Shown here: positions 3,288-28,073 of the stretch, piece by piece
How the letters are laid out: the number at the start of each line of letters is the position of its first letter
Position numbering within the stretch: position 1 is the first letter of the stretch
Notes under the pieces: model-generated
Database searches by the model: none
The model's input: the letters and a program-made list of their open reading frames with translations, nothing else
What the model was told of the DNA's origin: nothing
Program-made: the position numbers and the translations under genes
NCBI GenBank assembly: GCA_937893495.1
Contig: CALBIE010000391.1
Span: forward strand, 1,363-65,362
From: an uncultured Verrucomicrobiales bacterium
GTDB taxonomy: Bacteria; Verrucomicrobiota; Verrucomicrobiia; Limisphaerales; JAYPXF01
DNA length: 64,000 nt
Direction of reading: 5' to 3'

Positions 3288-3551
3288 AGGTTAGCAGGGG
3301 TTGAGGGTCGCGAGTCAATTGGGATTGATTCTTGAAGTAATCGACTCGATTGCCAGCAAAAATTTATGCTGATCAGATTGTAGTTTCGCAATCGACCCAC
3401 CTCGGTTACTTACCAATAAAGGCTGTTGTTGGCAGCATCGCAGAGTTGCCGGATTAGTCTCGCTGGCGTGACCGGCAAGATGGACCGGCGGACTTTAATC
3501 TTCGCGATCTGGATTTTCTGCGAGGATTCTGCTTATAGTTACTTTCGGAAT

Positions 3552-6500
3552 ATGAGAACCCGAATCGCAATGCTCCTTTTTGCCCTGTTGGGCGGGTTCT
3601 CCTTTCATGCTGTCGCAGCGGAGTTCGCCGATACCCCGCGTTACGGTCGCGATATTCGACCCATTCTGGCGGACAAATGTTTTCGCTGCCACGGACCGGA
3701 CGCGGCTTCACGAAAGGCGGAACTACGGCTCGACCGTCGGGAAGATGCCATCGCTCTGCGGGACGGACTTCGTGCCGTTTCGCCAGGCGACTCCGGCAGC
3801 AGCGAGTTACTCCATCGAATCACTCACAAGGACGAAGACGATCGCATGCCGCCACCGGACTCGGGTCTGGTTTTGAATTCGACGGAGATAGCGACGTTAC
3901 GCCAGTGGATCATTCAGGGAGCCCGTTATGAAAAGCACTGGTCACTGACGGTGCCGATTCGTCCGCCGTTACCGCTGGTCAAAAACGCAACCTGGCTGAG
4001 GAACGGCATCGACACTTTCATCCTGTCGCGATTGGAGAGGGAAAAAATCGGCGGACCTTCTCCCGTGGCAACGAAGGAAACGCTCATTCGTCGTCTCTCC
4101 CTCGATCTGACGGGATTGCCGCCGACCATTGAAGAGATTGACGCGTATCTCGGTGACCATTCATCCGGAGCCTACGAACGCGTGGTGGATCGCCTCCTGA
4201 ACTCGCCGCGCTTCGGGGAAAAGATGGCTGGACCCTGGCTGGATGCGGCCCGGTTTGCTGACTCCAACGGATACTTTACCGACATGGAGCGTACGATGTG
4301 GCCCTGGCGCGAATGGGTCATTCGAGCGTTCAACGACAACATGCCGTTCGACCAGTTCACCATTGAGCAACTCGCGGGAGATTTGCTTCCGGGCGCAACG
4401 TTGCAGCAGAAGATCGCCACTGGTTTCAATCGCAATCACATGGTAAACAATGAAACGGGAATCATTGCGGACGAGTTTCGAGTGGAGTATGTCGCTGATC
4501 GCGTAAAAACCACATCGACCGTCTGGATGGGATTGACCCTGGAATGCGCCCGTTGTCACGATCACAAATACGATCCGATTTCACAGGAGGATTACTACCG
4601 GTTCTTCGCGTTCTTCAACAATGTGCCGGAGAAAGGGCTGGATGGCGGACGAGGGAACGCGGCCCCCGTTCTCAACGTTGCTACCGCCGCGCAGACTGCA
4701 AGGTTGAAATCACTGGAGAAAAAGATCCAACTGGCCGAGCAGGAATTCAAATCGACGGAGGAACAGTTGCGCATTGCCCAGACGAAGTGGGAAGAGACCT
4801 GCCTGTCGAATTTGCCAAAGGCGACTGACGACGGACTCATCGCCCACTATGCGTTTGAAGGTGATCTCGTCGATTCGACCGGTGGTGGACGTGACGGCGC
4901 GAAGCAAGGGGAGGTCGGATTCAAGCCAGGCTATCTGGGAAACGCTGTGGAGCTGAGTGGCGGTTCAGCGATCGAGGTGGATGCCAATCTGCCGATTGGC
5001 AATGGGGAAGCCTTCTCGGCGGGTGCCTGGATTTATTCGACGGGTGGTGGCACGGCTTGCGTGATTTCGAAGATTGATGACGCCCATGGCCTGCGCGGAT
5101 TCGATCTGGTTCTGCGGAAAGGGAAGGCCGTGGTTCACCTGATTCACCAATGGAACGGGAACGCGATCGAAGTGGCGACTGTCGAATCGGTTTCGGGAAG
5201 ACAATGGCAACACCTCATGTTCACCTATGATGGATCGGGGCACGCCGCCGGCGTCTCAATTTATTTGAATGGGGACCGCCAGGCGCTGGAAATTCGACGC
5301 GATGCGTTGACGGGTTCGTTTGCCACAGCCGAACCTCTTCGAATCGGCCGTCGGCAAGCCAGCGCGTCGTTTCAAGGGCGGATCGATGACGCTCGAATTT
5401 ACCATCGCGCCTTGGGGGAAACGGAAGTGCGAAATCTCGCAAGTGGTCAGTTCCTGCGGGGCGCAATGGCGGTGTCGTCAGACAAGCGTGACAAGTTCTT
5501 GCAGCAGAAATTGCGAGACTACTTTGTCTCACAGCACGCGGAGAACATACAGCGACAAGCAGTCGCGGAACTGGCGCGACTTAAAGGAGAGGCAGCGGAT
5601 TATAAGGCCTCGTTGCCGATAATGATGGTCATGGCGGAAGAGCAAAAACCGCGGTCCTCATTCGTGCTCGAACGTGGCGAATACAATCGCCGGGGCAAGC
5701 TGGTTGAACCGGGTGTTCCCGCGAGTCTGTCGCCCCTGCCGGCCAACGAGCCGCCGAATCGCCTTGGTCTGGCCAGGTGGTTGATGGCTCCGGAGAATCC
5801 GCTGACCGCCCGGGTCATTGTTAATCGATACTGGAGCGAGATTTTCGGGCGCGGCATCGTCGCCACTTCGGAAGACTTCGGCAGTCAGGGTGACTGGCCG
5901 GAACATCCCGAGTTGCTGGACTGGCTGGCTTGCGAGTTTCGGGAGAACGGATGGAACGTCAAAGGATTGCTTCGACTCATCGTCACGTCGGCGATTTACC
6001 GGCAGACTTCGCGGTCCAATTCCGAACGCATCGCACTGGATCCGGACAACCGATTTCTGGCGCGCGGTCCGCGATTTCGGATGACCGCCGAAACCCTCCG
6101 GGACAACGCCCTTCGTCTCAGTGGTCTGTTGGCGGAAGTGATGGGAGGGCCGAGTGTGAAGCCGTATCAACCGGATGGCCTCTGGCGGGAGATGACCTAT
6201 GACAGCGGTCTCTCCTATCAACCCGATCTGGGAGCGTCACTCTACCGGCGCAGCCTTTACACCTATTGGAAACGTCAGTCGCCGCCACCGAACATGTTGC
6301 TCTTTGATGCACCCACCCGGGAAACGTGCACCGTGGCGCGCACCCGCACGAACACGCCACTACAGGCCCTCGCGCTGATGAACGATCCGACCTTTGTGGA
6401 AGCCGCTCGAAATCTGGCGGGACGAATGATGCGAGAGGCAGGTTCACAGGCTGCGGCCCGCATCCGGCATGGTTTTCGTATTGCCACGGGGCGACATCCT

Positions 6501-6701
6501 TCGGCTGACGAACTTGGTATTCTTGAGCGAATCCACGAGAAGCAATTACCTGCGTATCGAGCCAACCCGCAAGCCGCGCACGATTTGTTGAACGTGGGAA
6601 GTACCTCGTGCGATCCGAGTCTGGATACGGTTGAACTGGCTGCCTTGACGGCAGTCGCAAACCTGATTCTCAGTCTCGACGAAACGATCACGAAATTATG
6701 A
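3552..6701 (+). CDS. PSCyt/DUF1549/DUF1553 family protein with central LamG (concanavalin-like) insert
   Basis: Signal peptide after the Met at 3552 (MRTRIAMLLFALLGGFSFHAVAA). CxxCH motif CFRCHGPD (planctomycete cytochrome c-type domain). DUF1549-like segment (RRLSLDLTGLPPTIEEID). LamG-like insert (LIAHYAFEGDL...GRIDDARIYHRALGETEV). DUF1553-like C-terminus (ARVIVNRYWSEIFGRGIVATSEDFGSQGDWPEHPELLDWLA). The ORF-track TTG start at 3426 is judged an upstream extension. Confidence 0.9.
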   Translation: MRTRIAMLLFALLGGFSFHAVAAEFADTPRYGRDIRPILADKCFRCHGPDAASRKAELRLDRREDAIALRDGLRAVSPGDSGSSELLHRITHKDEDDRMPPPDSGLVLNSTEIATLRQWIIQGARYEKHWSLTVPIRPPLPLVKNATWLRNGIDTFILSRLEREKIGGPSPVATKETLIRRLSLDLTGLPPTIEEIDAYLGDHSSGAYERVVDRLLNSPRFGEKMAGPWLDAARFADSNGYFTDMERTMWPWREWVIRAFNDNMPFDQFTIEQLAGDLLPGATLQQKIATGFNRNHMVNNETGIIADEFRVEYVADRVKTTSTVWMGLTLECARCHDHKYDPISQEDYYRFFAFFNNVPEKGLDGGRGNAAPVLNVATAAQTARLKSLEKKIQLAEQEFKSTEEQLRIAQTKWEETCLSNLPKATDDGLIAHYAFEGDLVDSTGGGRDGAKQGEVGFKPGYLGNAVELSGGSAIEVDANLPIGNGEAFSAGAWIYSTGGGTACVISKIDDAHGLRGFDLVLRKGKAVVHLIHQWNGNAIEVATVESVSGRQWQHLMFTYDGSGHAAGVSIYLNGDRQALEIRRDALTGSFATAEPLRIGRRQASASFQGRIDDARIYHRALGETEVRNLASGQFLRGAMAVSSDKRDKFLQQKLRDYFVSQHAENIQRQAVAELARLKGEAADYKASLPIMMVMAEEQKPRSSFVLERGEYNRRGKLVEPGVPASLSPLPANEPPNRLGLARWLMAPENPLTARVIVNRYWSEIFGRGIVATSEDFGSQGDWPEHPELLDWLACEFRENGWNVKGLLRLIVTSAIYRQTSRSNSERIALDPDNRFLARGPRFRMTAETLRDNALRLSGLLAEVMGGPSVKPYQPDGLWREMTYDSGLSYQPDLGASLYRRSLYTYWKRQSPPPNMLLFDAPTRETCTVARTRTNTPLQALALMNDPTFVEAARNLAGRMMREAGSQAAARIRHGFRIATGRHPSADELGILERIHEKQLPAYRANPQAAHDLLNVGSTSCDPSLDTVELAALTAVANLILSLDETITKL

Positions 6702-8134
6702 ACATGCTGTCGCGACATGAATGGCGGGGAACCCGGAGGCAATTTCTCGGCCAGGGCGCCGGACTGGGCGTGGCGGCGCTCGCTTCGCTCATCAATCCGG
6801 GAGTCTTCGCCAATAGCGCGGCGGGCAGTGGTTCGGTCGTTCTGCCGCGCGCAAAAAGGATCATCTACCTGTTCATGCATGGTGGTCCGCCGCAGATGGA
6901 GTTGTTCGATCACAAACCGGGCCTGGATCAGAAGCGCGGAAGCGAATTGCCCGCCTCCGTGCGTGGCCGTCAACGCTTGACGGGGATGACGTCCGGTCAA
7001 AAAAACTTTCCCGTGGTTCCATCCAGCTTTCGCTTCGAACGGCATGGCCAATCCGGTGCCAGTATCAGTGAACTGATGCCCGGCCTGGCGGGCGTCGCTG
7101 ATGATCTCTGCTTCATCAAGTCCATGCACACCGAGGCGATCAATCACGATCCCGCCGTGACCTATTTGCAGACTGGCCATCAACAACCCGGCCGACCGAG
7201 CTTCGGTGCCTGGGCAAGCTATGGCTTGGGCAGCGAGAATCAGGATCTACCCGCGTTTGTGGTTCTTCTTTCCAATGGCAGCGCTTCGCGGCCGACCGAT
7301 CCGCTTCATGCGCGCCTATGGGGTTCCGGGTTTCTGCCTTCCAATCATCAGGGCGTTAAATTTCGATCCGGGAACGAGCCGGTACTCTACTTGTCGAATC
7401 CGCCCGGGATCGATGCCGCCAGCCGCCGCCGAATGATTGAAGGGCTGTCTGCTTTGAACCGAAAACATTTTCAGTCGTTCGGCGATCCGGAGATCATCAC
7501 GCGAACGTCACAGTTCGAATTGGCTTCGCGAATGCAGATGTCCGTGCCCGAGTTGACTGATTTATCGAAAGAATCTGACGACGTCTTCAATCTTTACGGG
7601 CCGGACGCAAAGAAGCCCGGTTCCTTTGCCCGGAACTGCATCCTCGCGCGCCGTCTCGCCGAACGCGGCGTGCGGTTCATCCAGCTTTACCATCGCGGTT
7701 GGGATCAGCACTACAATCTCCCCACCGACCTGCGACTCCAATGCCGCGATGTCGATCAACCCTGCGCCGCCCTCGTGCGCGATTTGAAACGACGTGGTCT
7801 GTTGGAAGACACGCTGATCGTCTGGGCGGGAGAGTTCGGACGAACGATTTACAGCCAGGGCAATCTGGAATCCAACAACTACGGTCGCGATCATCACGGC
7901 GGTTGTTTCACCATCTGGCTCGCCGGTGGCGGCATCAAACCGGGGATATCCTACGGCCTGACCGATGAATACTCGTTCAACGTCGCCGAGAATGGCGTGC
8001 ATGTGCATGACCTGAACGCGACGCTTCTCAACCGCCTGGGAATCGACCACGAAAAATTGACATTCAAGTACCAGGGCCGCAACTATCGCCTGACCGATGT
8101 GCACGGTAGTGTTGTGGACGGCTTGCTCGTGTGA
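6698..8134 (+). CDS. DUF1501 family (sulfatase-fold) protein with Tat-type signal
   Basis: 478-aa ORF with a twin-arginine leader (RRQFLGQGAGLGVAALA) and DUF1501 hallmarks (HGGPPQMELFDHKP, GEFGRT, GRDHH). ATG 6698 overlaps the TGA (6699-6701) of the upstream gene as ATGA, the classic DUF1553/DUF1501 pairing. Confidence 0.9.
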   Translation: MNMLSRHEWRGTRRQFLGQGAGLGVAALASLINPGVFANSAAGSGSVVLPRAKRIIYLFMHGGPPQMELFDHKPGLDQKRGSELPASVRGRQRLTGMTSGQKNFPVVPSSFRFERHGQSGASISELMPGLAGVADDLCFIKSMHTEAINHDPAVTYLQTGHQQPGRPSFGAWASYGLGSENQDLPAFVVLLSNGSASRPTDPLHARLWGSGFLPSNHQGVKFRSGNEPVLYLSNPPGIDAASRRRMIEGLSALNRKHFQSFGDPEIITRTSQFELASRMQMSVPELTDLSKESDDVFNLYGPDAKKPGSFARNCILARRLAERGVRFIQLYHRGWDQHYNLPTDLRLQCRDVDQPCAALVRDLKRRGLLEDTLIVWAGEFGRTIYSQGNLESNNYGRDHHGGCFTIWLAGGGIKPGISYGLTDEYSFNVAENGVHVHDLNATLLNRLGIDHEKLTFKYQGRNYRLTDVHGSVVDGLLV

Positions 8135-12415: not shown

Positions 12416-13165
12416 ATGTCGAAACCCTTCACACACATCTGTTTCGAATGCGCGAACGGCATTCCCTATGACAACGAAACCGCCGGGCGTGAAATAGGGT
12501 GTCCGTATTGCGGCAACCACATAAGGTTGGGCGAGTCGTCCGGTGCCGTCGCTGAAGAGGCCGAGGCCAGTCCATGGTCGCATTCGGACGAAGAGGACAT
12601 GAGCGATGATTCGCAGAGAAGGGGCGTGCGTGCGTTCGCAATTATTATAGCGATACTGTTGGTTGCAGGCGGTGGCTGGGCGAGCTGGTGGTTTGGGTTC
12701 CGCCAGGTGCCGGTCGAGCCCGGAATCAAGTTGGTTGAATCCACGGTTGAGTCGGGATCGGAGCAAAACAAATCTCCGCAGCCTGAATCTAAACCGCCGT
12801 CGGTTGCCACGGAGACGAACGCGCCGGCGACTACGAATGCACCGCCCCCGGTTGACTGGCGAACCTTCATCGGAACCTATCGCCGTAATCCTTCCGAGAA
12901 CAGTTCGCATACGGGAATAATCAGCTGGGTGGGACTGAGTGACAGCGGGAAGCCGATCCTGAAGTGGCGCAATCTCGCCGGAGCGGAATGGCCACTCTAC
13001 CCGACCCCCAAATCTTGGAAGGTTCGTACAGGAAAAGGAAACCCTCACCTGAATACGGCTCAAGGCAATCACTTCGTATTTCGCCCGGGCGAAGGAACGA
13101 ATCGAATCCCCGCCGGGTTTGAATTCAATCAGGGTTTCTTCATGCGCATCATCCTGGCGCGGTGA
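12416..13165 (+). CDS. mosaic-family protein: N-terminal zinc ribbon - acidic PW motif - single TM - C-terminal 'YRRNP' domain (module B)
   Basis: 249-aa ORF. CFEC...CPYC zinc ribbon, SPWSHSDEED, TM (VRAFAIIIAILLVAGGGWASWWFGF), C-terminal DWRTFIGTYRRNPSENSSHTG...KWRNLAGAEWPLYPTP...GFEFNQGFFMRI. The last segment is shared with the genes at 19156 and 22456. Confidence 0.85.
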   Translation: MSKPFTHICFECANGIPYDNETAGREIGCPYCGNHIRLGESSGAVAEEAEASPWSHSDEEDMSDDSQRRGVRAFAIIIAILLVAGGGWASWWFGFRQVPVEPGIKLVESTVESGSEQNKSPQPESKPPSVATETNAPATTNAPPPVDWRTFIGTYRRNPSENSSHTGIISWVGLSDSGKPILKWRNLAGAEWPLYPTPKSWKVRTGKGNPHLNTAQGNHFVFRPGEGTNRIPAGFEFNQGFFMRIILAR

Positions 13166-13476
13166 ACGGACGCTCGATGATGCGTGATTCTCACGGTGTG
13201 CCGACCCGGTACTCGTCGTCGGCCAGAATGGGCGACTGGAAATCCAGACTCATCGGTTGCGGCGATACTTGCCCAACGAATATCGATTCAGGCCAGTAGC
13301 GGATTTCGAGTCAGGCTCTGGGCATCAATGGGACACCCTTCAATTAATTGCACCACAGACACCCGGGCGAGCCACATTCCGGCGGACGGGCGCGGGAATC
13401 CGAACCGAGAATACCGGGCGCAGGTCTTCCGACATTCCGGACAACCGACCATTCTGGACGGAGCTGCGTTTTTTCA

Positions 13477-13503
13477 GAACGTGCTTCCAAAAATATTGTC
13501 TCA
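13477..13503 (+). promoter_or_regulatory. possible ECF-type promoter (GAACGT -35-like, 17-nt spacer, GTCTCA -10-like) upstream of the ECF sigma gene
   Basis: caGAACGTgcttccaaaaatattGTCTCAg lies about 40 nt upstream of ATG 13541. It resembles the generic ECF AAC...GTC/CGT layout. A second GAACGT (16504-16509) sits 33 nt upstream of the kinase gene at 16542. This is a pattern match only. Confidence 0.2.
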
Positions 13504-13540
13504 GAACGATACTCGCCGCTCAGGGAACTCTTCGATTGGA

Positions 13541-14281
13541 ATGAACGAACGAGACACCATCTCGCCGGGCCAACAAGCCTATTTTCAAACCACGCACTGG
13601 AGTGCTGTGCTGACGGCCGCTCGACCTTCCGAACCACGGGCATCGGCGGCGCTGGAGACGCTTTGTCGTAACTATTGGCTGCCGTTGTATCTCTACGTGC
13701 GCCGCAAGGGATTCAGCACCGAGGATGCTCAGGATTTGACCCAGGGATTTTTCGCCCATTTGCTCGGGACTGCCTGGTTGACCAAGGCTGATCGCGCCAA
13801 CGGCAAATTTCGATCATTCCTGTTGGTATCCCTGAACAATTTCCTGGCCAACGATTGGGATCATCGCAACGCAAAGAAGCGCGGCGGAGGCGCCAGCCAT
13901 CTGTCCATCGACGAGGAACTTGCTGAAAAACGCTTTCACAATGAACCCGCCTCCGGTGAAACGCCGGAGCATTTTTTTGATCGGCAATGGGCGGCGACCG
14001 TTCTGGAGCGCGCCATGACTCGACTTGCCGACGAAATGGCAGCATCCGGAAAGAAGCAGTACTTCGACAGACTTCGGGAGTTTATGGCCATCCGTGCGGC
14101 TCCTTCCGCCTACCACGAAATCGCCGGTGAACTCGACACAACACCAGCAGCGTTGGCGATGGCGGTCAGCCGGATGCGGAAGCGATATCGCGAGATAATC
14201 CGGTCGGAAGTGACCGATACCCTGGCTGAACCGGGCGACGCCGATCTTGAAATCAGGCATCTCCTGGAGGCGATTGCCTGA
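13541..14281 (+). CDS. ECF-type RNA polymerase sigma-70 factor (PVC-type, Ser/Thr-kinase-associated class)
   Basis: Met at 13541 chosen inside the 365-aa ORF. It reads MNERDTISPGQQAYFQTTHWSAVL...LCRNYWLPLYLYVRRKGFSTEDAQDLTQGFFAHLL (sigma region 2) and ...ELDTTPAALAMAVSRMRKRYREI (region 4 HTH). No adjacent classical anti-sigma gene; it is followed directly by an STK. Confidence 0.85.
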   Translation: MNERDTISPGQQAYFQTTHWSAVLTAARPSEPRASAALETLCRNYWLPLYLYVRRKGFSTEDAQDLTQGFFAHLLGTAWLTKADRANGKFRSFLLVSLNNFLANDWDHRNAKKRGGGASHLSIDEELAEKRFHNEPASGETPEHFFDRQWAATVLERAMTRLADEMAASGKKQYFDRLREFMAIRAAPSAYHEIAGELDTTPAALAMAVSRMRKRYREIIRSEVTDTLAEPGDADLEIRHLLEAIA

Positions 14282-16541: not shown

Positions 16542-19112
16542 ATGTCTGACGCAAAAGCATGCCCCCAGTGCGGGAGTGAAATGAGTCCGTCCGAACTCGA
16601 CGGGCTTTGTATGGCCTGCGTGGCGAAGATGGGCTTCAGCGAGGCGGAGATTGGAATCGATCCCCGGCCCGATGATGGTCCGGTGAAATCCGAGGTGCCC
16701 CGGAAAATCCGCTACTTTGGTGATTACGAAATTCGCAGTGAGGTTGCCAGGGGAGGGATGGGAGTTGTCTATCGTGCGCGGCAGATGACGCTGAACCGGG
16801 ATGTCGCGCTCAAAATGGTAATGGGTGGCGTTCTGGCATCTGAAACGGAGGTCCAACGTTTCCGCACCGAGGCGGAAGCGGCTGCCCGGCTCGATCATCC
16901 CAATATCGTGGCCATCTACGAATTCGGTGAGCATGAGGGTTGCCAATACTTCACGATGAAGTTCATCGAAGGCGGCAGCCTGGCTCAACGGATCGGGGAA
17001 TACACCGGCCATCAGCGCGCCGCTGCCGTGCTGATGGCCAAGGTTGCGAGGGCGATTCACTATGCTCACCAACACGGCGTGCTCCATCGTGATGTCAAGC
17101 CGGCCAACATCCTGCTCGACGAATACGGGGACCCGCACGTGACCGATTTCGGGCTGGCAAAGATCGTCGAGGACGAACGCAATCTGACCCTGAGCGGCGC
17201 CGTGATGGGGTCGCCGGCCTACATGGCGCCGGAACAGGCGGAAGGCAGCAGCAAACGGATCAGTGCCGGCACCGATGTCTATGGCCTCGGGGCAGTTCTT
17301 TACCACCTGCTGACTGGTTCCCCACCTTTCAAAGGGAAATCAGCGATGCAGGTGGTTGCCAAAGTGATTGATTCCGCACCGGCCTTGCCGTCCTCATTGA
17401 TGCCGAAATTGGATGAACAGCTCGAATCCATCTGTCTTCGCTGTCTGGAGAAGAATCCTGCGAGCCGGTATTCATCCGCGGCGGGACTGGCCGATGATCT
17501 GGAGCGATGGCTGCAAGGTGAACATCGGGAATCCTCGCGCGCGCCGTTCGCAGCTCGGTTGCGGAACAGGATTCGCCGAAATCCCGTCGTGGCCGGTTGC
17601 CTGGCTGTCGCGGTATTGGCTCTTGGGATGGTTGGATGGAAGTATCTTCCAACCGGCGGCTGGCTTGGGAAACGCGGGGAAATCTTAAAAGCCGGGGGCA
17701 TGGCTCCATCGAAACAAGTGAGTCCGTTTGTGGGAACGAACGCTCAACTTCGAGCCAGATGGACCAACAGCCTCGGAATGGTCTTTGTGCCTGTGCCGGG
17801 AACGGAAGTGCAGTTCTGCATCTGGGAGACCCGGTTTCAGGATCACGGAACGTTTGCGAAGCAGACGAGCCGGGCGGTGAAATTGCCTTCGCTCGAAGGC
17901 CCGACGTACCCGGCAGTGAATGTGTCGTGGGGCGAAGCAAAGGAATTTTGTCAATGGCTGACCGAGAAGGAACAAAAGGCCGGATTGCTCGCGAGCGATC
18001 AATTGTATCGGCTACCTACGGATGAAGAATGGAGCCGGGCGGTGGGCTTGACGAGTGAAAGCGGGTCAACGCCGGTGATGCGAATGGCCGCAGGAATCAA
18101 AGGTGTCTATCCCTGGGGAACGGGGTGGCCGCCGCCTCGGGGCGCAGGGAATTACGCGGAGAGTCTGAACATGGATGATTTCGAGCGCACCGCTCCCGTG
18201 GGCTCCTTTGATGGGAACGCTTACGGAATTCATGACCTGAGCGGCAATGTATGGGAGTGGTGCGAAGACAGTCCCGGCGACAGCGGTCGCAACCGCCGTG
18301 TGCTGCGCGGTGGATCCTGGAACTGCGACCGTCCCGCCGATCTGTTGTCCTCCGGCCGCTTCATCAAGGAGGTGCCGTCGACGCCCTACGATCACATTGG
18401 GTTTCGAGTTGTGCTGGCAATCTTTGATTCGGAACTCGAAAGAAACCTCCGTCGGACGTCTCAGTCGGCCGTGGAGGACGGAAGCGTCCGGGCAATCGTC
18501 CCCGGCGGTCTGGCATCGTGCCGGCAGTTGCTGAAGAAACAGGGCGGTGACGAAAACAAGTTGTACGTCCACGGCGGAATACTTTGTTACGACGAAATCG
18601 ACGGACTTAATCTCGATCCGTTGAAGGGGGTTCCCTTGAATTCGCTCCACTTTGTCGGATCCCCGACAGCTGATCTGAAACCAGTGGTGGGGATGCCGTT
18701 GTATAATCTCAATCTGCATTCCAGTCCGAATCTCACCGATTTGTCCCCAATCCGCGCGTTGCAATTGCGAAAGCTCACGCTTGATGGGTGTACGAGTATT
18801 CGTGATTTTTCCGTGCTGTCAGAATTGAATCTTGAGTCGCTTGACCTGAAGGGGACCGCCATTGCTGATATTTCAATCGTCATAGGAAAGAACCTGAAGT
18901 ACCTCCGGCTTGAGGAATGTCGCCAGATCAAAAGTCTGCTGCCGCTGAAAGGACACAACTCGATCGAGACATTGATCGTTCCGATGAACGCGCCCGACAT
19001 GGAAGCATTACGAGGTCTGCCAAAGCTCAAGATGATTGGTTTCACTGAAGAAGGCTTGAAGGCGCCCAAGGATTTCTGGGCGGAATACGATTCGAAGAAA
19101 AAAGACCGTTAG
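16542..19112 (+). CDS. Ser/Thr protein kinase - TM - FGE/SUMF1-type (formylglycine-generating-enzyme-like) domain - LRR-like module 1
   Basis: 856-aa ORF. CPQCG...CMAC N-terminus. Kinase motifs (ARGGMGVVYRA, ALKMV, HRDVKPANILL, DFGLAK, GSPAYMAPE). TM (VVAGCLAVAVLALGMVGW). SUMF1 motifs (NSLGMVFVPVPG, VSWGEAKEFCQWLT, YRLPTDEEW, GNVWEWCED, RVLRGGSW, GFRVVL). C-terminal LRR-like repeats ending FWAEYDSKKKDR, paralogous to the tail of the 23754 gene. Confidence 0.9.
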   Translation: MSDAKACPQCGSEMSPSELDGLCMACVAKMGFSEAEIGIDPRPDDGPVKSEVPRKIRYFGDYEIRSEVARGGMGVVYRARQMTLNRDVALKMVMGGVLASETEVQRFRTEAEAAARLDHPNIVAIYEFGEHEGCQYFTMKFIEGGSLAQRIGEYTGHQRAAAVLMAKVARAIHYAHQHGVLHRDVKPANILLDEYGDPHVTDFGLAKIVEDERNLTLSGAVMGSPAYMAPEQAEGSSKRISAGTDVYGLGAVLYHLLTGSPPFKGKSAMQVVAKVIDSAPALPSSLMPKLDEQLESICLRCLEKNPASRYSSAAGLADDLERWLQGEHRESSRAPFAARLRNRIRRNPVVAGCLAVAVLALGMVGWKYLPTGGWLGKRGEILKAGGMAPSKQVSPFVGTNAQLRARWTNSLGMVFVPVPGTEVQFCIWETRFQDHGTFAKQTSRAVKLPSLEGPTYPAVNVSWGEAKEFCQWLTEKEQKAGLLASDQLYRLPTDEEWSRAVGLTSESGSTPVMRMAAGIKGVYPWGTGWPPPRGAGNYAESLNMDDFERTAPVGSFDGNAYGIHDLSGNVWEWCEDSPGDSGRNRRVLRGGSWNCDRPADLLSSGRFIKEVPSTPYDHIGFRVVLAIFDSELERNLRRTSQSAVEDGSVRAIVPGGLASCRQLLKKQGGDENKLYVHGGILCYDEIDGLNLDPLKGVPLNSLHFVGSPTADLKPVVGMPLYNLNLHSSPNLTDLSPIRALQLRKLTLDGCTSIRDFSVLSELNLESLDLKGTAIADISIVIGKNLKYLRLEECRQIKSLLPLKGHNSIETLIVPMNAPDMEALRGLPKLKMIGFTEEGLKAPKDFWAEYDSKKKDR

Positions 19113-19155: not shown

Positions 19156-22100
19156 ATGGCCAAACCACAGTCCAAAAACTTTTTCACCATGAGGCAAACA
19201 TATTGCGCCACCGAGCGGGTCGATAACCACCGCAATGCTCCAATCGTTCGAATCACGCTCGCAGTGACTGTGTTCATGACCGCCTGCACTGCGGAACCAC
19301 TTCCGCCCGCCAGGAGCAAGCAACTCTGTTACTCGATCGTACAGGATATTGATCGCGCCATGCGCGAATGGGCCCGGCGCTCGAAACCGAAGATTGGTCA
19401 GAAAATTGATTTGGAAGTACTGGCGCCCTTTCGCAGGCGAGGTCTGCCGGTAGTCTGTCCGATTGGAGGGGAAATCACCGTGAGTGAATATGGCGATCTT
19501 CCGGTCTGTAGCCTGCCGGAACATCAGCACAGACCATGGCGCAGCCTGCCGCCACAAATCGCCATCAAGCATCGTATCGGTGAATTGGAATCGAAAGACA
19601 GCAAACAGATTCTCCGGGCATTCAACCAGATCGAGCGCTCCGCCTATGCGAACACCAACGGGGCGGTCTTGTTACCGCACATGCTTGATGCGCTCGACGC
19701 AATGGCGCCAACCATCGAGGACGTGGAACGATACATCGTCAAATACCCGCGGGAAATCATGGGTTCGATGAATCCGGTTAACACAATGACGAAGTTTTCA
19801 AGTAACTCTGTTCCCATTCTGCTCTCTGCTGTGACGACTCGTACTCGTTCCAATCTGACGCGCCGTGTTTGCTTCGAGGCGTTGACCAGAATGAAGTTCC
19901 CCGGCCACAAGGATGTCATAATTGCCGGCTTAACCAACGACGTGCCGCTGGTCAACGTATTGGCGATGCAAACCTTGAGGCGTCACCCGGATTACGTTGA
20001 AGCGGCCGGGGATTTGGTTTCGAACAGCATGAAGCAGGTTTTACACAAACTGCATCCGGATGATGTGCAATGGGCGATCATCCCATTCGGCTATTTGAAG
20101 CTCGAAGTCGGGCAATTCGTTCCGGATTTGGGCAGGATTATTTTTGCCGAACCGGATCCGTCCGTTGAAACCAAGAATCAGACGCGCATTTCCTCCGGCG
20201 CGAGTCTTTTCGCCCGGGCCAAGCCGGACGCCAAACGTGCAATTGGTGCGATGGCAGCACAGTATTTTCGATCGAACTCAGCTCATCAACGCAGGGCTGC
20301 CGCAAGCGTCTTAAGGATTATCGGCGGCGAGGCAAAGGAATGGCGCAACCTTCTCGTTTCGGGCGTCGACGACGACGACGAGCAGGTGCGTCTCAATTCC
20401 TTTCAGGCGCTCAGGAACCTCGACGAGGAACCGGACACTTGGCTGGCATTGAATCAACGGAAGCTGGCCGACAACAGTCATTCGATCCGAAGACTCGCTT
20501 CGCAACATCTTGCGCAGATCGTCGTCACGGATTCCCAGCGGATACTGCCAATTGTTCTGAAACTCCTCTCGGACACCAACCACCTGGTGCGCATTGGAGC
20601 CTTGGAAACCCTTGGAATGATGCGTCCGCCCGCTGGCAGTGCCCTCCCGTCAGTGGCAAGTGCGTTGAACGACAAGCACCCGCTCGTCCGGTCCTCAGCA
20701 GTTGCAACCTTGGGGAAGTACGGTGATGCCGCCCGCACCAGTATTCCGGAACTTCTGTCCCGGTTCAAAGCCCCGGATGAAACGGCCAAGGCAACCTTCC
20801 TGACAGCGCTCGGTCAAATAGACCCTGAGAATGCTTCTGTCATCGAAGCCGGCATGGCTGGTCTGGAATCTGACAGCAAAGCCACTGTGATCGCAGCGGC
20901 AGGCGTTCTGAGCCGCACGAAGGCCTATCTTGCCCCTCACGTTGATCGACTTTTGCACCTGATGAAGGACCGGCAGAAGCGCACTGACGGCAAGATTCCA
21001 TACCTGCTCCAAAAAGTGGGGCCGGAGGCACTGCCGAAACTGATCTCGGCGCATCAGCAAGGCCCGGAGAACCTGAGTTGGGTTGTCATCAATGTCGTTG
21101 GTTCGCTTCGTGGGCATGATGTGGAAGTCCCACCAGAAGTGGCAAATCAACTCGCGCCGTTGTTCACAGAATGGTTTGAGTTCAATACCAAAGTGGCTGT
21201 TTTTCCTCCGGATGCAGTCAGACCGCGCATTGCTGCGGCTTTTCCGGCATTGGGTAGGATTGCGGCGTCTGAGATGGCGTATCTTCTGAGCATTCAAAAA
21301 TCCAAATCGGGAGCCAGTGCCTTCTCTAATCGATACGACCAGGATCTCCTCCGGAGAGCATTCAAGAAACTGACCGAAAAGTATCCTGATGTTAAGCTGG
21401 TGGATCTTGCGGCGAAAACAAGAGTTCCGGTTGAATGGAAAAAGTTTCTCGGCACGTATCGGCGCAATCCGTATGAGAACACCTGGCACGAAGGTGTTCT
21501 CAGTTGGGTCGGGATGAATGCAAAAGGATTGCCCGTGCTGAAATGGCGCAATATGGCCGGCATAGAATGGGAGCTTCTGCCTGAGCCGAATTCATGGAGA
21601 ATGAAAACCGGCACGGGAAATCCGTACCAGTCGAAAGGCTATCCCGCTGCCCTGGAATTCCGGTTCCGACCACAAACCGATCAAAATCGGCCACCGCACG
21701 GATTCCAGTTCAACCAGGATTATTTTGTACGAATTGATCCTATGGTCATGCGTTTCTTGGGGCTGTTGGGGAAGACTGCAGGGCGACCAACCAACACGCA
21801 ACCGCAACCGAAGAAAGCTCCCCCGTCTCCCAGTCCATCAAAGGAGCAGTTGGAACGAATCTGTTTTCAGAGTCTCAATTCCATCGACCGTGCAATCGTG
21901 AAATGGGCGACAAGCAACAAGATCAAACCTGAATCGCCGATCGACCGGCGTGCGCTGCTCTCCCACCTCTCTCGCTCCCTCATGCCCAAGTGCCCGTCGG
22001 GTGGCGCCTATGAAACCACCGTGGCAGGCGAAGTGCCGACCTGTTCTGTTCACGGCAGTTCCACACCGAACCGAAAGCGTTCGCCCATCAAATTATTGGA

Positions 22101-22350
22101 CATGTGTATCGCCAACATGAAACAGATTGACGGTGCCACGCAGCAGTGGGCTTTGGAAAACAAGAAACTTTCGGGCTCTGCGGTTGATCGGAAGCAAATG
22201 CTATTCTATCTCAAGAACGGACAAATGCCGGTTTGTCCCTCTTCCGGTACGTATGTCCTTGCAAACATCAATGCCAGTCCATCGTGTTCGGTTCATGGGA
22301 GCCTGGGCACGGCAATGAAGGTCTCCAAACAACAGGGGAATCTTCCATAG
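19156..22350 (+). CDS. mosaic-family protein: MAKP start - pilin-like Cys module - HEAT repeats - module B - two more Cys modules
   Basis: 1064-aa ORF. It starts MAKPQSKNFF and has a hydrophobic/lipoprotein-like segment (ITLAVTVFMTAC). HEAT-like repeats (EQVRLNSFQALRNL, HLVRIGALETLGMM, HPLVRSSAVATLGKYGD). Module B (EWKKFLGTYRRNPYENTWHEG...GFQFNQDYFVRI). Three copies of the C..(N)..(Q)ID.A...WA...K...CP.GG.Y......P.CS.(H)G module. Confidence 0.9.
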   Translation: MAKPQSKNFFTMRQTYCATERVDNHRNAPIVRITLAVTVFMTACTAEPLPPARSKQLCYSIVQDIDRAMREWARRSKPKIGQKIDLEVLAPFRRRGLPVVCPIGGEITVSEYGDLPVCSLPEHQHRPWRSLPPQIAIKHRIGELESKDSKQILRAFNQIERSAYANTNGAVLLPHMLDALDAMAPTIEDVERYIVKYPREIMGSMNPVNTMTKFSSNSVPILLSAVTTRTRSNLTRRVCFEALTRMKFPGHKDVIIAGLTNDVPLVNVLAMQTLRRHPDYVEAAGDLVSNSMKQVLHKLHPDDVQWAIIPFGYLKLEVGQFVPDLGRIIFAEPDPSVETKNQTRISSGASLFARAKPDAKRAIGAMAAQYFRSNSAHQRRAAASVLRIIGGEAKEWRNLLVSGVDDDDEQVRLNSFQALRNLDEEPDTWLALNQRKLADNSHSIRRLASQHLAQIVVTDSQRILPIVLKLLSDTNHLVRIGALETLGMMRPPAGSALPSVASALNDKHPLVRSSAVATLGKYGDAARTSIPELLSRFKAPDETAKATFLTALGQIDPENASVIEAGMAGLESDSKATVIAAAGVLSRTKAYLAPHVDRLLHLMKDRQKRTDGKIPYLLQKVGPEALPKLISAHQQGPENLSWVVINVVGSLRGHDVEVPPEVANQLAPLFTEWFEFNTKVAVFPPDAVRPRIAAAFPALGRIAASEMAYLLSIQKSKSGASAFSNRYDQDLLRRAFKKLTEKYPDVKLVDLAAKTRVPVEWKKFLGTYRRNPYENTWHEGVLSWVGMNAKGLPVLKWRNMAGIEWELLPEPNSWRMKTGTGNPYQSKGYPAALEFRFRPQTDQNRPPHGFQFNQDYFVRIDPMVMRFLGLLGKTAGRPTNTQPQPKKAPPSPSPSKEQLERICFQSLNSIDRAIVKWATSNKIKPESPIDRRALLSHLSRSLMPKCPSGGAYETTVAGEVPTCSVHGSSTPNRKRSPIKLLDMCIANMKQIDGATQQWALENKKLSGSAVDRKQMLFYLKNGQMPVCPSSGTYVLANINASPSCSVHGSLGTAMKVSKQQGNLP

Positions 22351-22421: not shown

Positions 22422-22455
22422 CTGAATGCTTTTGTTGAAAAGGAACAGCAAAGCC
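22422..22455 (+). promoter_or_regulatory. conserved leader module (second copy)
   Basis: ctgaatgcttttgttgaaaaggaacagcaaagccATGGCCAAACA aligns along its whole length with 19121-19165. Confidence 0.35.
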
Positions 22456-23592
22456 ATGGCCAAACAGTTGAAACATTCCTGCCACCATTGTGGGAACGTC
22501 ATTCCCCACGACGATGACGTGGTGGGGAACGAAGTGACTTGTCCCCACTGTGCGAACACCACCGTTCTGGGAAATGACTATTCGGGCCATATGGGGAACG
22601 CAAATTCCAATCCATGGGATGAAGATCCGTGGGAAAAGCAGATGGAAGAAGTCGCGAAAGAAGAAACCCAAGATCGCGAGCAACTGGTGGTCAGGAAGTG
22701 GAGCGACAGCGTGGTTGGCACGGTGTGGGGCGGGGTTTGTTTCCTGCCGATCATTGTTCTTCTGCTTTGGGGATTCGCGAGTGAGGAATATGGCCACACG
22801 CTCAAGGAATTCAGCGAGAAAGTCGTTCCCCCGGGCACCAATGGCCTTCCGGGCATCATCGGGTTCCTGTTTATTCTGCTCCCCACGGTGGTGGTGGGGA
22901 CTGTGCGTATCGTTCTGGCCCTCTGCTACAATCCATTTACCTATCTGATTTTTTGCAGTTGCCTGGGATTCGGCGCGTTGGCCGGTTGGTTCGTTGCAAC
23001 CGTTTGGAATCCTCGGGTTGAGCTTCTGCGTGGGTTCGCCACGGTATTGCTCGGCTTCACGCTTTCGTTCGGGTTCGTCCAAATGGTACTGGCCGAAAAG
23101 TGGAGGAACTTCAGCGCGAGCAAGATATCCGGACAGAGGAACCTCAAGGTACCTCAAAAGCCGGCTCCGAACGAATTGCCAAAGTCGACTCCCGGCGCGC
23201 CACCCGGTGTGCCCACCAAGGTCGCCCCGCAGAAGAAGCAGGCTGCAAAACCAGCGACCGCCATCGATTGGCGTGTCTTTATCGGAACGTACCGTCGCAA
23301 TCCCTACGAAAACACGTGGCATGTGGGAACCATCACCTATGTCGGCATGAGCGGCAGTGGAAAACCGATGCTGAAATGGCGAAATCAGGCAGGCATGGAA
23401 TGGCCACTCTATCCCACACCGGATACATGGAATGTTCGCACCGGCAAGGGAAATCCTTATCTGAACACGGACCAGGGCAATCATTTCGAATTCCGCCCGG
23501 GCCAGCATTCCAACAGCCCACCGGTTGGGTTTCAGTTCAACCAGGATTTTTTTCAACGACTCGTCGTGCCCGCCCAGGGGGGAGCGAGATAG
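22456..23592 (+). CDS. mosaic-family protein: zinc ribbon - NPWDED motif - about 4 TM - module B
   Basis: Met at 22456 (MAKQLKHSCHHCGNVIPHDDDVVGNEVTCPHC) preferred over the ORF-track start at 22426. NPWDEDPW motif, four hydrophobic helices, C-terminal DWRVFIGTYRRNPYENTWHVG...KWRNQAGMEWPLYPTP...GFQFNQDFFQRL. Confidence 0.9.
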   Translation: MAKQLKHSCHHCGNVIPHDDDVVGNEVTCPHCANTTVLGNDYSGHMGNANSNPWDEDPWEKQMEEVAKEETQDREQLVVRKWSDSVVGTVWGGVCFLPIIVLLLWGFASEEYGHTLKEFSEKVVPPGTNGLPGIIGFLFILLPTVVVGTVRIVLALCYNPFTYLIFCSCLGFGALAGWFVATVWNPRVELLRGFATVLLGFTLSFGFVQMVLAEKWRNFSASKISGQRNLKVPQKPAPNELPKSTPGAPPGVPTKVAPQKKQAAKPATAIDWRVFIGTYRRNPYENTWHVGTITYVGMSGSGKPMLKWRNQAGMEWPLYPTPDTWNVRTGKGNPYLNTDQGNHFEFRPGQHSNSPPVGFQFNQDFFQRLVVPAQGGAR

Positions 23593-27993: not shown

Positions 27994-28073
27994 TAAGCAC
28001 ACGGACGATTGGGAAAAGGCCCCATACGTCGAAAAGTTCCAGACAAAGTATCACTCTCAACATCATCGACCGA

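What the first reader, a model, noticed from the sequence alone, without database searches (positions are those of the whole stretch)
12854..13162. Unrecognised ~100-aa 'GTYRRNPYENTWH' domain (module B) present three times in three architectures
The three copies are at 12854-13162, 21433-21735 and 23266-23568. They align without gaps by eye:
- DWRTFIGTYRRNPSENSSHTGIISWVGLSDSGKPILKWRNLAGAEWPLYPTPKSWKVRTGKGNPHLNTAQGNHFVFRPG...GFEFNQGFFMRI
- EWKKFLGTYRRNPYENTWHEGVLSWVGMNAKGLPVLKWRNMAGIEWELLPEPNSWRMKTGTGNPY...FRFRPQ...GFQFNQDYFVRI
- DWRVFIGTYRRNPYENTWHVGTITYVGMSGSGKPMLKWRNQAGMEWPLYPTPDTWNVRTGKGNPYLNTDQGNHFEFRPG...GFQFNQDFFQRL

The invariant aromatic and charged positions (W, GTYRRNP, H.G, KWRN.AG.EW, P.P..W, TG.GNPY, F.FRP, GF.FNQ.(Y/F)F) suggest a compact beta-rich binding domain. 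I cannot assign it to any family from memory.
Basis: seen in the sequence. Interest (0 to 1): 0.65.

Follow-up and report, generated by a model that had tools for sequence, protein, structure and literature searches.

The report
Unmodelled lipocalin-like beta-barrel domain family
The three ~100-residue repeats are real copies of a rare, previously uncatalogued protein domain that is predicted to fold into a small lipocalin-like beta-barrel and probably acts as a binding 'head' on membrane and secreted proteins, often beside sigma-factor/kinase signalling genes; it is a modest new domain family and not a new kind of system.

Summary
Exactly three copies of a ~100-aa module lie at 12854-13162, 21433-21735 and 23266-23568. 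They are 52-69% identical, their synonymous sites are saturated, and they are under purifying selection.

No Pfam, NCBIfam, PADLOC or PDB-sequence model hits the module. An exhaustive HMMER search of 1.84 billion representatives found 217 clusters. With a family HMM, 144 of the top 150 were confirmed.

Labelled members come from Planctomycetota, Verrucomicrobiota and Acidobacteriota MAGs and from two protists. Sources call them 'hypothetical', or name them after a partner domain.

AlphaFold2 models of a window copy and of a distant member reach pLDDT 95-96. Both show eight consecutive beta-strands after a short helix. Foldseek's best matches are the C-terminal lipocalin-like domain of the cyclases SurE and Ulm16 (TM 0.63-0.68), followed by classical lipocalins. 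None reaches E<=1e-3.

Family members mostly carry signal peptides. The module is usually C-terminal and often tandem, and it is fused to lectin, LamG, TonB_C, lipase or kinase-TM parts. In 4 of 12 neighbourhoods it sits beside an ECF sigma factor plus Ser/Thr kinase pair.

Best reading: a new sequence family of lipocalin-like binding modules. The ligand is unknown.

The parts
12854..13162 (+). Module B copy 1, the C-terminal domain of the 249-aa protein
   Evidence: Translation; HMM hit 81-197 bits; member P0002 of the family
21433..21735 (+). Module B copy 2, internal domain (aa 760-860) of the 1064-aa protein
   Evidence: Translation; HMM hit; P0003
23266..23568 (+). Module B copy 3, the C-terminal domain of the 388/378-aa protein. 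This copy was modelled: pLDDT 95.1, 8 strands
   Evidence: P0001
12416..13165 (+). Host protein A (249 aa): Zn ribbon (12437-12514), one TM segment (12626-12700), Pro/Thr/Glu-rich linker, module B. It lies just upstream of the ECF-like sigma gene
   Evidence: the same gene is called on public contigs
19156..22350 (+). Host protein B (1064 aa): lipobox-like signal (19243-19287, FMTAC), Cys-module (19327-19524), HEAT repeats (about aa 376-582), module B, then two more Cys-modules (21862-22059, 22105-22302)
   Evidence: Pfam HEAT_2 4.9e-20; hydropathy and lipobox; Cys-module alignment
22426..23592 (+). Host protein C (388 aa, probably 378 aa from the ATG at 22456): Zn ribbon (22477-22554), four hydrophobic segments (22702-23097), Lys/Pro-rich linker, module B
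   Evidence: orthologue P0008/P0153 has the same layout
13328..14281 (+). Divergent ECF-like sigma factor gene. The public call is 317 aa, the ORF opens at 13184, and the conserved part starts near 13541. It belongs to the sigma/kinase cassette next to which module-B genes recur
   Evidence: Sub-threshold NCBIfam ECF hits at E 1e-6 to 1e-3; no Pfam hit; 24-26% identical to the sigma factors of L010 and L013
14352..15980 (+). Ser/Thr protein kinase with an N-terminal Zn ribbon and C-terminal TM segments
   Evidence: Pkinase 3.6e-53; hydropathy
16542..19112 (+). Ser/Thr kinase, TM segment, FGE-sulfatase domain, LRR module. It lies immediately upstream of host protein B (43-bp gap)
   Evidence: Pkinase 2.6e-50 and FGE-sulfatase 2.4e-30; regions shared with the kinases of L010 and L013
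26560..27993 (+). Sister chassis protein: the same Zn ribbon (26581-26658), three TM segments, then an LRR module in the slot that module B fills in A and C
   Evidence: BLASTP 46% identity over the first ~60-70 aa to A and C, E 1e-14; hydropathy

Best explanation
Module B is an independently folding ~95-105-residue domain. It belongs to a rare, so far unmodelled sequence family that adopts a compact lipocalin-like fold: a short N-terminal helix followed by an eight-stranded antiparallel up-and-down beta-barrel, without the C-terminal helix of classical lipocalins. It most likely works as a ligand- or substrate-recognition head. Across the family it is usually exported, sits at the extreme C-terminus, is often repeated in tandem, and is attached to lectin-like, LamG, TonB_C, lipase, esterase or peptidase parts, or to a Ser/Thr kinase through a TM segment. 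In this window it is mounted twice on a 'cytoplasmic Zn ribbon - TM - flexible linker' chassis and once inside a HEAT-repeat lipoprotein. All three genes lie in an island built around an ECF-like sigma factor and Ser/Thr kinases. I infer that the three paralogues recognise related envelope or environmental ligands. I also infer that they either feed into that kinase-dependent sigma pathway or are its output. What is shown: domain reality, family membership, absence from the libraries, the predicted fold, the family-wide architectures, and the recurring sigma/kinase neighbourhood. What is inferred: binding function, ligand class, compartment for protein C, and any link to signalling.
For: Homology and constraint. 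The family is real: 217 clusters at E<=1e-3 among 1.84 billion representatives, 144 of the top 150 reconfirmed with a 106-segment HMM, and a clear consensus G.YrR.PveN.WH.G.I...L.WTN.AGvSW.L.Pd....L.Tg.dNPY...F.....GF.F...Y.r. No library model. Fold: two AlphaFold2 models (window copy 3, and a member about 40% identical to it) have pLDDT 95.1 and 95.9, pTM 0.87 and 0.86, and the same order of helix plus 8 strands. Foldseek best matches are the SurE (6ksv/6ksu) and Ulm16 (8fek) lipocalin-like domains at TMq 0.63-0.68, rmsd 3.0-3.5 A, prob 0.99-1.0, followed by about 25 lipocalins at TMq 0.5-0.6. PMC11735501 describes that SurE domain as a lipocalin-like eight-strand domain bordering the substrate cleft. 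Conserved residues fall at i, i+2, i+4 on each strand, as expected for one conserved barrel face. Location and use: most members start with a signal peptide or lipobox; the module ends the protein in 93 of 144; 40 of 144 have 2-4 tandem copies. Partner domains include fn3, F5/8-C, LamG, TonB_C, RicinB, GDSL lipase, Lipase_3, Peptidase_C1, GH85_C and BamE, and P0044 is Pkinase-TM-module. In the window the module fills the same C-terminal slot that an LRR module fills on a sister Zn-ribbon/TM protein. An ECF sigma plus STK pair lies next to the module gene in 4 of 12 independent neighbourhoods (window, L010, L013, L015). The sigma factors and the STK-FGE-sulfatase kinases are related between loci.
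Against: No Foldseek match reaches E<=1e-3 (best 0.039), and I could not inspect coordinates to confirm that the barrel closes or has a cavity. A 93-105-residue barrel may have little or no calyx. No ligand, partner or phenotype is known for any member. Protein C and its orthologue have four hydrophobic segments and a positively charged flank after the last one. With a cytoplasmic Zn ribbon, that would put their module in the cytoplasm, unlike protein A. Some members, including the Chromera and Diplonema proteins and an EF-hand fusion, have no signal peptide. Eight of 12 neighbourhoods lack the sigma/kinase pair, and the orthologue of protein C sits between unrelated genes. PVC genomes are rich in ECF sigma factors and kinases, so some adjacency arises by chance. 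No shared promoter motif was found.
Confidence: 0.6

Rival explanations
1. Module B is specifically a carbohydrate-binding module. It would target secreted enzymes and receptors to a glycan, for example the sulfated polysaccharides that planctomycetes degrade, using the conserved Trp/Tyr/His/Asn/Arg residues.
For: Partner domains lean towards glycan recognition and hydrolysis: F5/8 type C, NedA-like galactose-binding, RicinB lectin, LamG, GH85_C, and a GH97 neighbour. The module is C-terminal and tandem, like many CBMs. The conserved positions are aromatic and polar. The genomic setting is rich in sulfatases and in FGE-sulfatase-domain kinases.
Against: No CBM or lectin Pfam model hits any of the 60 members. 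The structural neighbours are lipocalin-like barrels, not beta-sandwich or beta-trefoil CBMs. Lipase, esterase and peptidase partners do not point to glycans.
Confidence: 0.2
2. Module B is a protein-protein interaction or co-receptor domain of kinase-dependent ECF sigma pathways. It would dock onto the extracytoplasmic FGE-sulfatase/LRR part of the neighbouring Ser/Thr kinase and modulate sigma-factor phosphorylation.
For: A sigma plus STK pair adjoins the module gene in 4 of 12 loci, with related sigma factors and STK-FGE-sulfatase kinases. P0044 is a kinase-TM-module fusion. Protein A lies directly upstream of the sigma gene and has the 'Zn finger - TM - outside domain' layout typical of anti-sigma factors. 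Kinase-associated ECF groups lack known anti-sigma factors, so their inputs are open (PMC7826278).
Against: Most family members are plain secreted proteins with enzyme or lectin partners in unrelated neighbourhoods. The orthologue of protein C is not next to signalling genes. The Zn ribbon is C-x2-C...C-x2-C, and no anti-sigma (zf-HC2 or RskA-type) model hits it.
Confidence: 0.15
3. Module B is a small enzyme or cofactor-binding barrel. Some lipocalin-fold proteins are of this kind. The near-invariant His, Asn, Tyr and Arg would form an active or cofactor site.
For: H21 and several polar residues are >=90% conserved: N18, N42, T61, N-P-Y. The conserved face of the strands includes Arg, Asn, Thr and Tyr. 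Structural neighbours include catalytic or ligand-carrying lipocalins such as L-PGDS, nitrophorin and sandercyanin.
Against: Tandem repetition of 2-4 copies and use as a C-terminal appendage on bona fide hydrolases are typical of binding modules, not of catalytic domains. There is no similarity to any enzyme family.
Confidence: 0.05
4. The domain is already catalogued elsewhere (a recent InterPro/CDD entry, an ECOD family or an AlphaFold-DB structural cluster), so it is new only with respect to the libraries available here.
For: Only Pfam-A (2025 copy), NCBIfam 20, PADLOC, PDB and BFVD could be searched. No AlphaFold DB library and no HHpred were available. One member is in UniProt (A0A0G4IFC0, Chromera velia) and several are in NCBI nr.
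Against: Every source name seen is 'hypothetical/uncharacterized protein' or derives from a partner domain. The precomputed Pfam fields for the hits are empty. A full-text search for three member accessions found no paper.
Confidence: 0.15

Closest known systems
C-terminal lipocalin-like domain of PBP-type thioesterases/cyclases (SurE 6KSU/6KSV, Ulm16 8FEK); the related D-aminopeptidase entry 1EI5 also matched
   Same: These are the best structural matches: TMq 0.63-0.68, rmsd 3.0-3.5 A over about 90 residues, Foldseek prob 0.99-1.0. 1EI5 was rank 4 for the window copy. Like module B, the SurE/Ulm16 domain is small (about 90-100 aa), has eight antiparallel strands, is C-terminal, and is an accessory domain that shapes a substrate-binding cleft and is not itself catalytic (PMC11735501).
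   Different: There is no detectable sequence similarity: the family profile does not find SurE in the PDB, and Foldseek E is only 0.04-0.3. Module B was not seen fused to a beta-lactamase/PBP hydrolase domain. It occurs in tandem arrays, on membrane anchors and with quite different partners.
Classical lipocalins / calycin superfamily (bacterial Blc, ApoD, siderocalin, L-PGDS, beta-lactoglobulin)
   Same: Both have a predicted eight-stranded up-and-down barrel preceded by a short helix. TMq is 0.51-0.60 with prob 0.8-0.98 to many lipocalins. A G-x-aromatic motif opens strand A and a conserved Arg closes the last strand. This is reminiscent of lipocalin SCR1 (G-x-W) and SCR3 (Arg), but that comparison rests on my own knowledge and the equivalence was not tested.
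   Different: Module B is about 95-105 residues against 150-190. It has no C-terminal alpha-helix. It has G-x-Y where lipocalins have G-x-W. No Pfam lipocalin or calycin model hits it. It is used as a repeated module inside multidomain proteins and not as a stand-alone carrier.
Extracytoplasmic sensor or anti-sigma-like 'Zn finger - TM - periplasmic domain' proteins next to ECF sigma genes, and kinase-associated ECF groups (ECF43, ECF59-62)
   Same: Proteins A and C have a cytoplasmic Cys4 ribbon, TM segment(s), a linker and an outer domain. Protein A abuts an ECF-like sigma gene that is followed by Ser/Thr kinases. This is the gene arrangement described for kinase-associated ECF groups (PMC7826278), and it recurs with module-B genes in L010, L013 and L015.
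   Different: No anti-sigma domain model hits. The ribbon is not the H-x3-C-x2-C ZAS motif. The ECF group of the sigma factor was not determined. Most family members have nothing to do with sigma factors.

Membership tests
Lipocalin-like / calycin fold (structural superfamily) | Eight-stranded antiparallel up-and-down beta-barrel | tested here: met
   Two AF2 models (pLDDT 95.1 and 95.9) give 8 consecutive strands joined by short hairpins. Foldseek gives TMq 0.51-0.68 to lipocalin-like domains and lipocalins. Caveats: these are predictions only, no hit has E<=1e-3, and barrel closure was not inspected.
Lipocalin-like / calycin fold (structural superfamily) | Short (3-10) helix immediately before strand A | tested here: met
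   DSSP assigns a helix at residues 4-7 before strand A (9-13) in both models.
Kernel lipocalins (Pfam Lipocalin and related calycin-clan families) | Sequence match to a lipocalin/calycin family model, with the SCR1 G-x-W motif | tested here: not met
   No Pfam hit at E<=1 for the 3 copies or for 60 diverse members. The motif is G-x-Y, with Tyr >=90% conserved.
Kernel lipocalins (Pfam Lipocalin and related calycin-clan families) | C-terminal alpha-helix packed on the barrel; size of about 150-190 residues | tested here: not met
   The models end with strand H. The domain is 93-105 aa, and in 93 of 144 family members the protein ends within 15 residues of it.
PBP-type thioesterase / D-aminopeptidase lipocalin-like C-terminal domain | Fusion to an N-terminal beta-lactamase/PBP-fold hydrolase domain | tested here: not met
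   None of the three window proteins has one. It is not among the 25 partner families shown (of 51 found) in 89 homologues, nor in the 10 scanned singly.
PBP-type thioesterase / D-aminopeptidase lipocalin-like C-terminal domain | Detectable sequence homology to SurE, Ulm16 or DAP | tested here: not met
   Profile searches of all PDB sequences at E<=10 returned only chance hits: Cas7-11, ferredoxin-NADP reductase and cyclin E1.
Anti-sigma factors of ECF sigma factors (ZAS/zf-HC2, RskA-type) | N-terminal anti-sigma domain (H-x3-C-x2-C zinc motif or an ASD model hit) with a TM segment and an extracytoplasmic domain, encoded next to the sigma gene | tested here: inconclusive
   The layout and the adjacency are met for protein A. 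However, no ASD or zf-HC2 model hits, and the ribbon is C-x2-C...C-P-x-C. Binding to sigma cannot be tested with these tools.
Kinase-associated ECF sigma cassettes (ECF43, ECF59-62 type) | ECF sigma gene with an adjacent Ser/Thr kinase and no canonical anti-sigma factor | tested here: inconclusive
   A sigma-like gene is followed by two STK genes, but the sigma factor only reaches sub-threshold ECF scores and its ECF group was not assigned. The literature criterion comes from PMC7826278.
Carbohydrate-binding modules / lectin domains | Match to a CBM or lectin family model, or a CBM-type fold | tested here: not met
   There are no such Pfam hits on the module itself. Lectin domains occur only as separate partners. 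The structural neighbours are lipocalin-like.

The most novel reading that the evidence does not exclude
Module B is the missing extracytoplasmic input (or a dedicated co-receptor) of kinase-dependent ECF sigma pathways in Planctomycetota. It would be a lipocalin-like ligand-capturing head that either is fused to the Ser/Thr kinase (as in P0044) or is encoded beside an 'ECF sigma - STK-FGE-sulfatase' pair and signals through it. This would give the first defined sensory module for the planctomycetal kinase-associated ECF groups.
Probability: 0.12. Interest if true: 0.6.

Novelty: new member of a known kind. Interest (0 to 1): 0.4.

Why it matters
The finding defines a domain family that current annotation pipelines leave blank. 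There are about 200 clusters at 50% identity, spread over Planctomycetota, Verrucomicrobiota, Acidobacteriota and at least two protists, and members are labelled hypothetical or named only after a partner domain. With clear boundaries, a signature and a confident predicted fold, the family could be turned into a Pfam/InterPro entry. The recurrent placement beside ECF-sigma/Ser-Thr-kinase pairs, together with one kinase fusion, gives a concrete and testable handle on what planctomycetal kinase-dependent sigma pathways sense. That question is currently open. Apart from that, this is one more small binding-type barrel and not a new biological principle.

Tried and rejected
(1) The word-indexed searches of the 5.8-billion-protein set failed with the 3-copy profile (no hit) and with the full 388-aa protein (self hits only). 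With the 60-member profile the same index gave 4 hits. Only the index-free HMMER search found the family.

(2) The pattern scan of GTDB genomes gave one hit (L001). It lies antisense inside an acyl-CoA synthetase gene and is a chance match.

(3) The metagenome pattern scan gave only a short contig carrying the 249-aa protein's sequence again (L008) and a chance hit antisense in an FGE-sulfatase gene (L009).

(4) Six of the top 150 HMMER hits (P0018, P0063, P0080, P0137, P0144, P0147) match only through many short stretches. The family HMM rejects them, so they are not counted as members.

(5) A defence-system reading was rejected. PADLOC hits only the HEAT repeats.

(6) Foldseek against viral structures gave nothing significant.

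(7) A search for a shared bipartite ECF-type promoter motif upstream of module-B and sigma genes found nothing beyond shuffled controls.

(8) A conserved operon for the Zn-ribbon-4TM-module protein was rejected. Its orthologue sits between a MYG1-type exonuclease gene and an HrpB helicase gene.

(9) A literature search for three member accessions found no paper.
Full report
**1. Observation**

- Copy 1 is the C-terminus of a 249-aa protein (12416-13165).
- Copy 2 is residues 760-860 of a 1064-aa protein (19156-22350).
- Copy 3 is the C-terminus of a 388-aa ORF (22426-23592). This ORF probably starts at the ATG at 22456, as in the public gene call of 378 aa.

The copies are 52-69% identical in protein and 69-74% in DNA. 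Pairwise tblastn E-values are 1e-35 to 1e-49, and 48 columns are invariant. Synonymous sites are saturated (pS 0.64-0.86) while pN is 0.17-0.31. These are old paralogues under purifying selection. Neither the 3-sequence HMM nor the broad family HMM finds a fourth copy in any frame. One correction: copy 2 needs a two-residue indel.

**2. Not in the libraries**

Pfam-A (2025 copy), NCBIfam 20 and PADLOC give no hit on the module, either in the isolated copies or in the host proteins. The host proteins show only HEAT repeats and weak Zn-ribbon noise. PDB sequence profiles built from 3 and then 60 sequences return only chance matches. Scanning 60 diverse family members one by one against Pfam gives no consistent family. 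The best singletons are at E 0.003-0.02.

**3. A real but rare family**

The word-indexed search found nothing. The index-free HMMER search of 1.84 billion representatives then found 217 clusters at E<=1e-3, of which 31 are at E<=1e-10. A family HMM built from 106 full-length segments reconfirms 144 of the top 150. The six rejected hits match only through short repeated stretches.

The consensus is G.YrR.PveN.WH.G.I-(variable loop)-L.WTN.AGvSW.L.Pd....L.Tg.dNPY-(loop)-F.l...-(loop)-v.GF.F.ge.Y.r. Positions G, Y, N, H, W, N, A, W, L, T, P, Y, F, G, F and F are >=90% conserved.

Source labels are 'hypothetical/uncharacterized' or borrowed from a partner domain ('TonB family protein', 'pseudopilin PulG'). 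Named organisms are:
- Planctomycetales and Planctomycetota MAGs
- Verrucomicrobiota MAGs
- Candidatus Acidoferrales
- the protists Chromera velia (UniRef A0A0G4IFC0) and Diplonema ambulator

The window itself matches ENA metagenome assemblies. It carries PSCyt1/PSCyt2/PSD1 plus DUF1501 gene pairs typical of Planctomycetota/Verrucomicrobiota. The window's own subfamily (GTYRRNP...KWRN) is very rare. There is one further orthologue cluster (P0008/P0153), and nothing else turned up in the genome or metagenome pattern scans.

**4. Fold**

AlphaFold2 on copy 3 with the 60-sequence alignment gives pLDDT 95.1 and pTM 0.87. The model has a four-residue helix followed by eight strands joined by short turns. 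A compact member about 40% identical (P0005 residues 616-705) gives pLDDT 95.9 and pTM 0.86 with the same element order.

Foldseek against the PDB finds nothing at E<=1e-3, but the ranking is coherent:
- For the window copy: Japanin, the D-aminopeptidase entry 1EI5, Blc (TMq 0.51), PliC, OmCI and nitrophorins.
- For the compact member: the SurE chains (6KSV/6KSU; TMq 0.63-0.68, rmsd 3.1-3.5 A, prob 1.0) and Ulm16 (8FEK; 0.63). [quoted passage not shown] About 25 classical lipocalins follow at TMq 0.5-0.6.

[quoted passage not shown] BFVD gives no significant hit.

Conserved residues sit at i, i+2, i+4 on each strand: L-W-N, W-L-P, F-x-F and Y-x-R. This is the pattern expected for one conserved barrel face.

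I conclude that module B is a new sequence family with a lipocalin-like mini-barrel fold. It lacks the C-terminal helix and the G-x-W motif of kernel lipocalins, having G-x-Y instead, and it shows no sequence link to any calycin-clan model.

**5. How the family is used**

- Of 129 members that start with Met, about half have an N-terminal hydrophobic segment above my threshold. Many of the rest have visibly signal-peptide-like N-termini, and 11 have a lipobox-like motif.
- The module is at the extreme C-terminus in 93 of 144 members, and 40 of 144 carry 2-4 tandem copies.
- Partner domains are fn3, F5/8 type C, NedA-like galactose-binding, LamG, TonB_C, RicinB, BspA-type LRR, GDSL lipase, Lipase_3, papain-like peptidase, GH85_C, Ig-like, CarboxypepD_reg and BamE. 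P0044 has the arrangement Pkinase - TM - module.
- A minority appear cytosolic or eukaryotic: an EF-hand fusion (P0049) and an MGC... N-terminus in the Chromera protein.
- The three window copies contain no cysteine, so the fold does not depend on an oxidising compartment.

**6. The window's architectures**

Protein A consists of a Cys4 ribbon (C-x2-C-x18-C-P-x-C), one TM segment with RRGVR on its N-terminal side, an acidic Pro/Thr-rich linker and the module. This predicts N-in, C-out.

Protein C consists of the same ribbon, four hydrophobic segments, a Lys/Pro-rich linker and the module. Its orthologue P0008 has the same four segments. With an even number of TM segments and a positive flank after the last one, the module would lie on the cytoplasmic side. 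This conflicts with protein A, and I could not resolve it.

Protein B has a lipobox-like signal (FMTAC), a 67-aa Cys-module, HEAT repeats, the module and two more Cys-modules.

All-against-all BLASTP shows that shuffling is general in this island:
- The Zn ribbon is shared by proteins A and C and by the 477-aa protein at 26560.
- A C-terminal LRR module is shared by four proteins.
- LamG is shared by three proteins.
- The kinase domain is shared by three proteins.

On the 477-aa protein, an LRR module occupies the slot that module B occupies in A and C, after three TM segments. Two unrelated binding-type modules being interchangeable on one chassis is the best in-window argument that module B is a recognition head.

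**7. Neighbourhood**

In the window the gene order is:
1. FHA-kinase-WD40
2. protein A
3. ECF-like sigma factor (only sub-threshold NCBIfam ECF hits; no Pfam hit)
4. Ser/Thr kinase (STK)
5. STK-FGE-sulfatase-LRR
6. protein B
7. protein C
8. Zn-ribbon-TM-LamG-LRR

Among 12 independent neighbourhoods of family members, an ECF sigma plus STK pair adjoins the module gene in four:
- the window
- L010: sigma, STK-FGE-sulfatase, then P0015
- L013: a sigma operon divergent from P0021, followed by STK-FGE-sulfatase
- L015: an STK-sigma operon divergent from P0005

The other eight lack the pair.

The L010 and L013 sigma factors are 46% identical to each other and 24-26% identical to the window's sigma. 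Their kinases share the FGE-sulfatase region with the window's 856-aa kinase, and L010's also shares part of the LRR region. The L015 sigma factor belongs to a different ECF family.

The literature describes kinase-associated ECF groups (ECF43, and ECF59-62 from planctomycetes) that lack anti-sigma factors and are thought to be controlled by sigma phosphorylation (PMC7826278).

A search for a shared bipartite promoter motif found nothing above shuffled controls. The association is suggestive, but PVC genomes are dense in such genes and I could not compute a proper background.

**8. Mechanism and verdict**

Several things are shown: a conserved, independently folding domain; its absence from the libraries; a lipocalin-like predicted fold; a mostly exported, C-terminal, tandem, mix-and-match pattern of use; and partial linkage to sigma/kinase cassettes.

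What is inferred is that the module binds a ligand or substrate, of unknown class, and presents it to or anchors its host protein. In this island it may serve as input to, or output of, a kinase-dependent ECF pathway.

The rivals are a CBM-like glycan binder, a kinase co-receptor, a small enzyme, or a domain already catalogued in resources I could not search. They are scored separately.

Novelty is at the level of a new family within a known fold class. Interest is moderate.

Noticed in passing
window 12437-12514, 22477-22554, 26581-26658: An N-terminal Cys4 zinc-ribbon module (M-[AS]-K-P-x-x-H-x-C-x2-C-x18-C-P-x-C, followed by an acidic 'NPW(D/S)E' stretch) is shared by the 249-aa, 388-aa and 477-aa proteins at 32-46% identity (E 1e-11 to 1e-14). 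It is also present in the orthologue P0008. No Pfam or NCBIfam family passes its threshold. It looks like a second unmodelled module, this one cytoplasmic.
   Followed up: partly
window 19327-19524, 21862-22059, 22105-22302: A ~67-aa three-cysteine module (C..(L/I)..ID.A...WA...17-23 residues...L...P.CP.(G/S)G.Y.......P.CS.(H/P)) occurs three times in the 1064-aa protein, once before the HEAT repeats and twice after module B. There is no Pfam hit, only a weak sub-threshold NCBIfam hit (NMCC_0638 lipoprotein family, E 0.003).
   Followed up: partly
window 16542-19112, 23754-26519, 26560-27993, 27789-30644: A ~200-aa C-terminal leucine-rich-repeat module ending in '...FWEEYD.KKK' is shared by four otherwise different proteins at 29-60% identity: kinase-FGE-sulfatase, two Zn-ribbon/multi-TM-LamG proteins, and Zn-ribbon-3TM. 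LamG is likewise shared by 3426-6701, 23754-26519 and 27789-30644. The island is a mosaic of shuffled modules.
   Followed up: partly
window 13184-14281: The sigma-factor-like gene next to protein A gets no Pfam hit at E<=0.1 and only sub-threshold NCBIfam ECF hits (best E 1.2e-6, 28 bits against a cut-off of 206). It is a very divergent ECF-like sigma factor followed by two Ser/Thr kinase genes. Its start is uncertain: the ORF opens at 13184, the public call starts at 13328, and the conserved part starts near 13541.
   Followed up: partly
window 22702-23097 (protein C) versus 12626-12700 (protein A): Protein C and its orthologue P0008 have four hydrophobic segments (with a conserved 'NPFTYL' between the second and third) and a positively charged flank after the last. 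That would place their module B on the cytoplasmic side. Protein A, with one TM segment, should place its module outside. The same domain apparently on opposite sides of the membrane is unexplained.
   Followed up: partly
P0038 (Chromera velia, UniRef A0A0G4IFC0), P0062 (Diplonema ambulator), P0049 (EF-hand fusion): The family also occurs in eukaryotic protists, in proteins without signal peptides. One has an 'MGCASS' N-terminus and one an EF-hand pair. This suggests either ancient presence or transfer between bacteria and protists.
   Followed up: no
window 3426-8134 and 50576-55468: Two paralogous PSCyt/PSD1-type plus DUF1501 gene pairs are present (3426-6701 has PSCyt1-PSCyt2-LamG-PSD1), at 35-38% identity between pairs. 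Such pairs are a hallmark of Planctomycetota/Verrucomicrobiota genomes, and they support that origin for the window.
   Followed up: partly
window 26560-27993 / 27789-30644: These two long ORFs overlap by 205 nt in different frames. They share a 60%-identical C-terminal LRR module and an 83%-identical 23-aa stretch. The real start of the second gene is probably well downstream of 27789.
   Followed up: no
L018 7001-10081 (P0017): One family member carries four 98-aa copies of the module spaced exactly 121 aa apart, each with the same HMM score. This indicates a very recent internal tandem amplification. The gene lies upstream of a Peptidase_C14 (caspase-like)/MORN gene.
   Followed up: no
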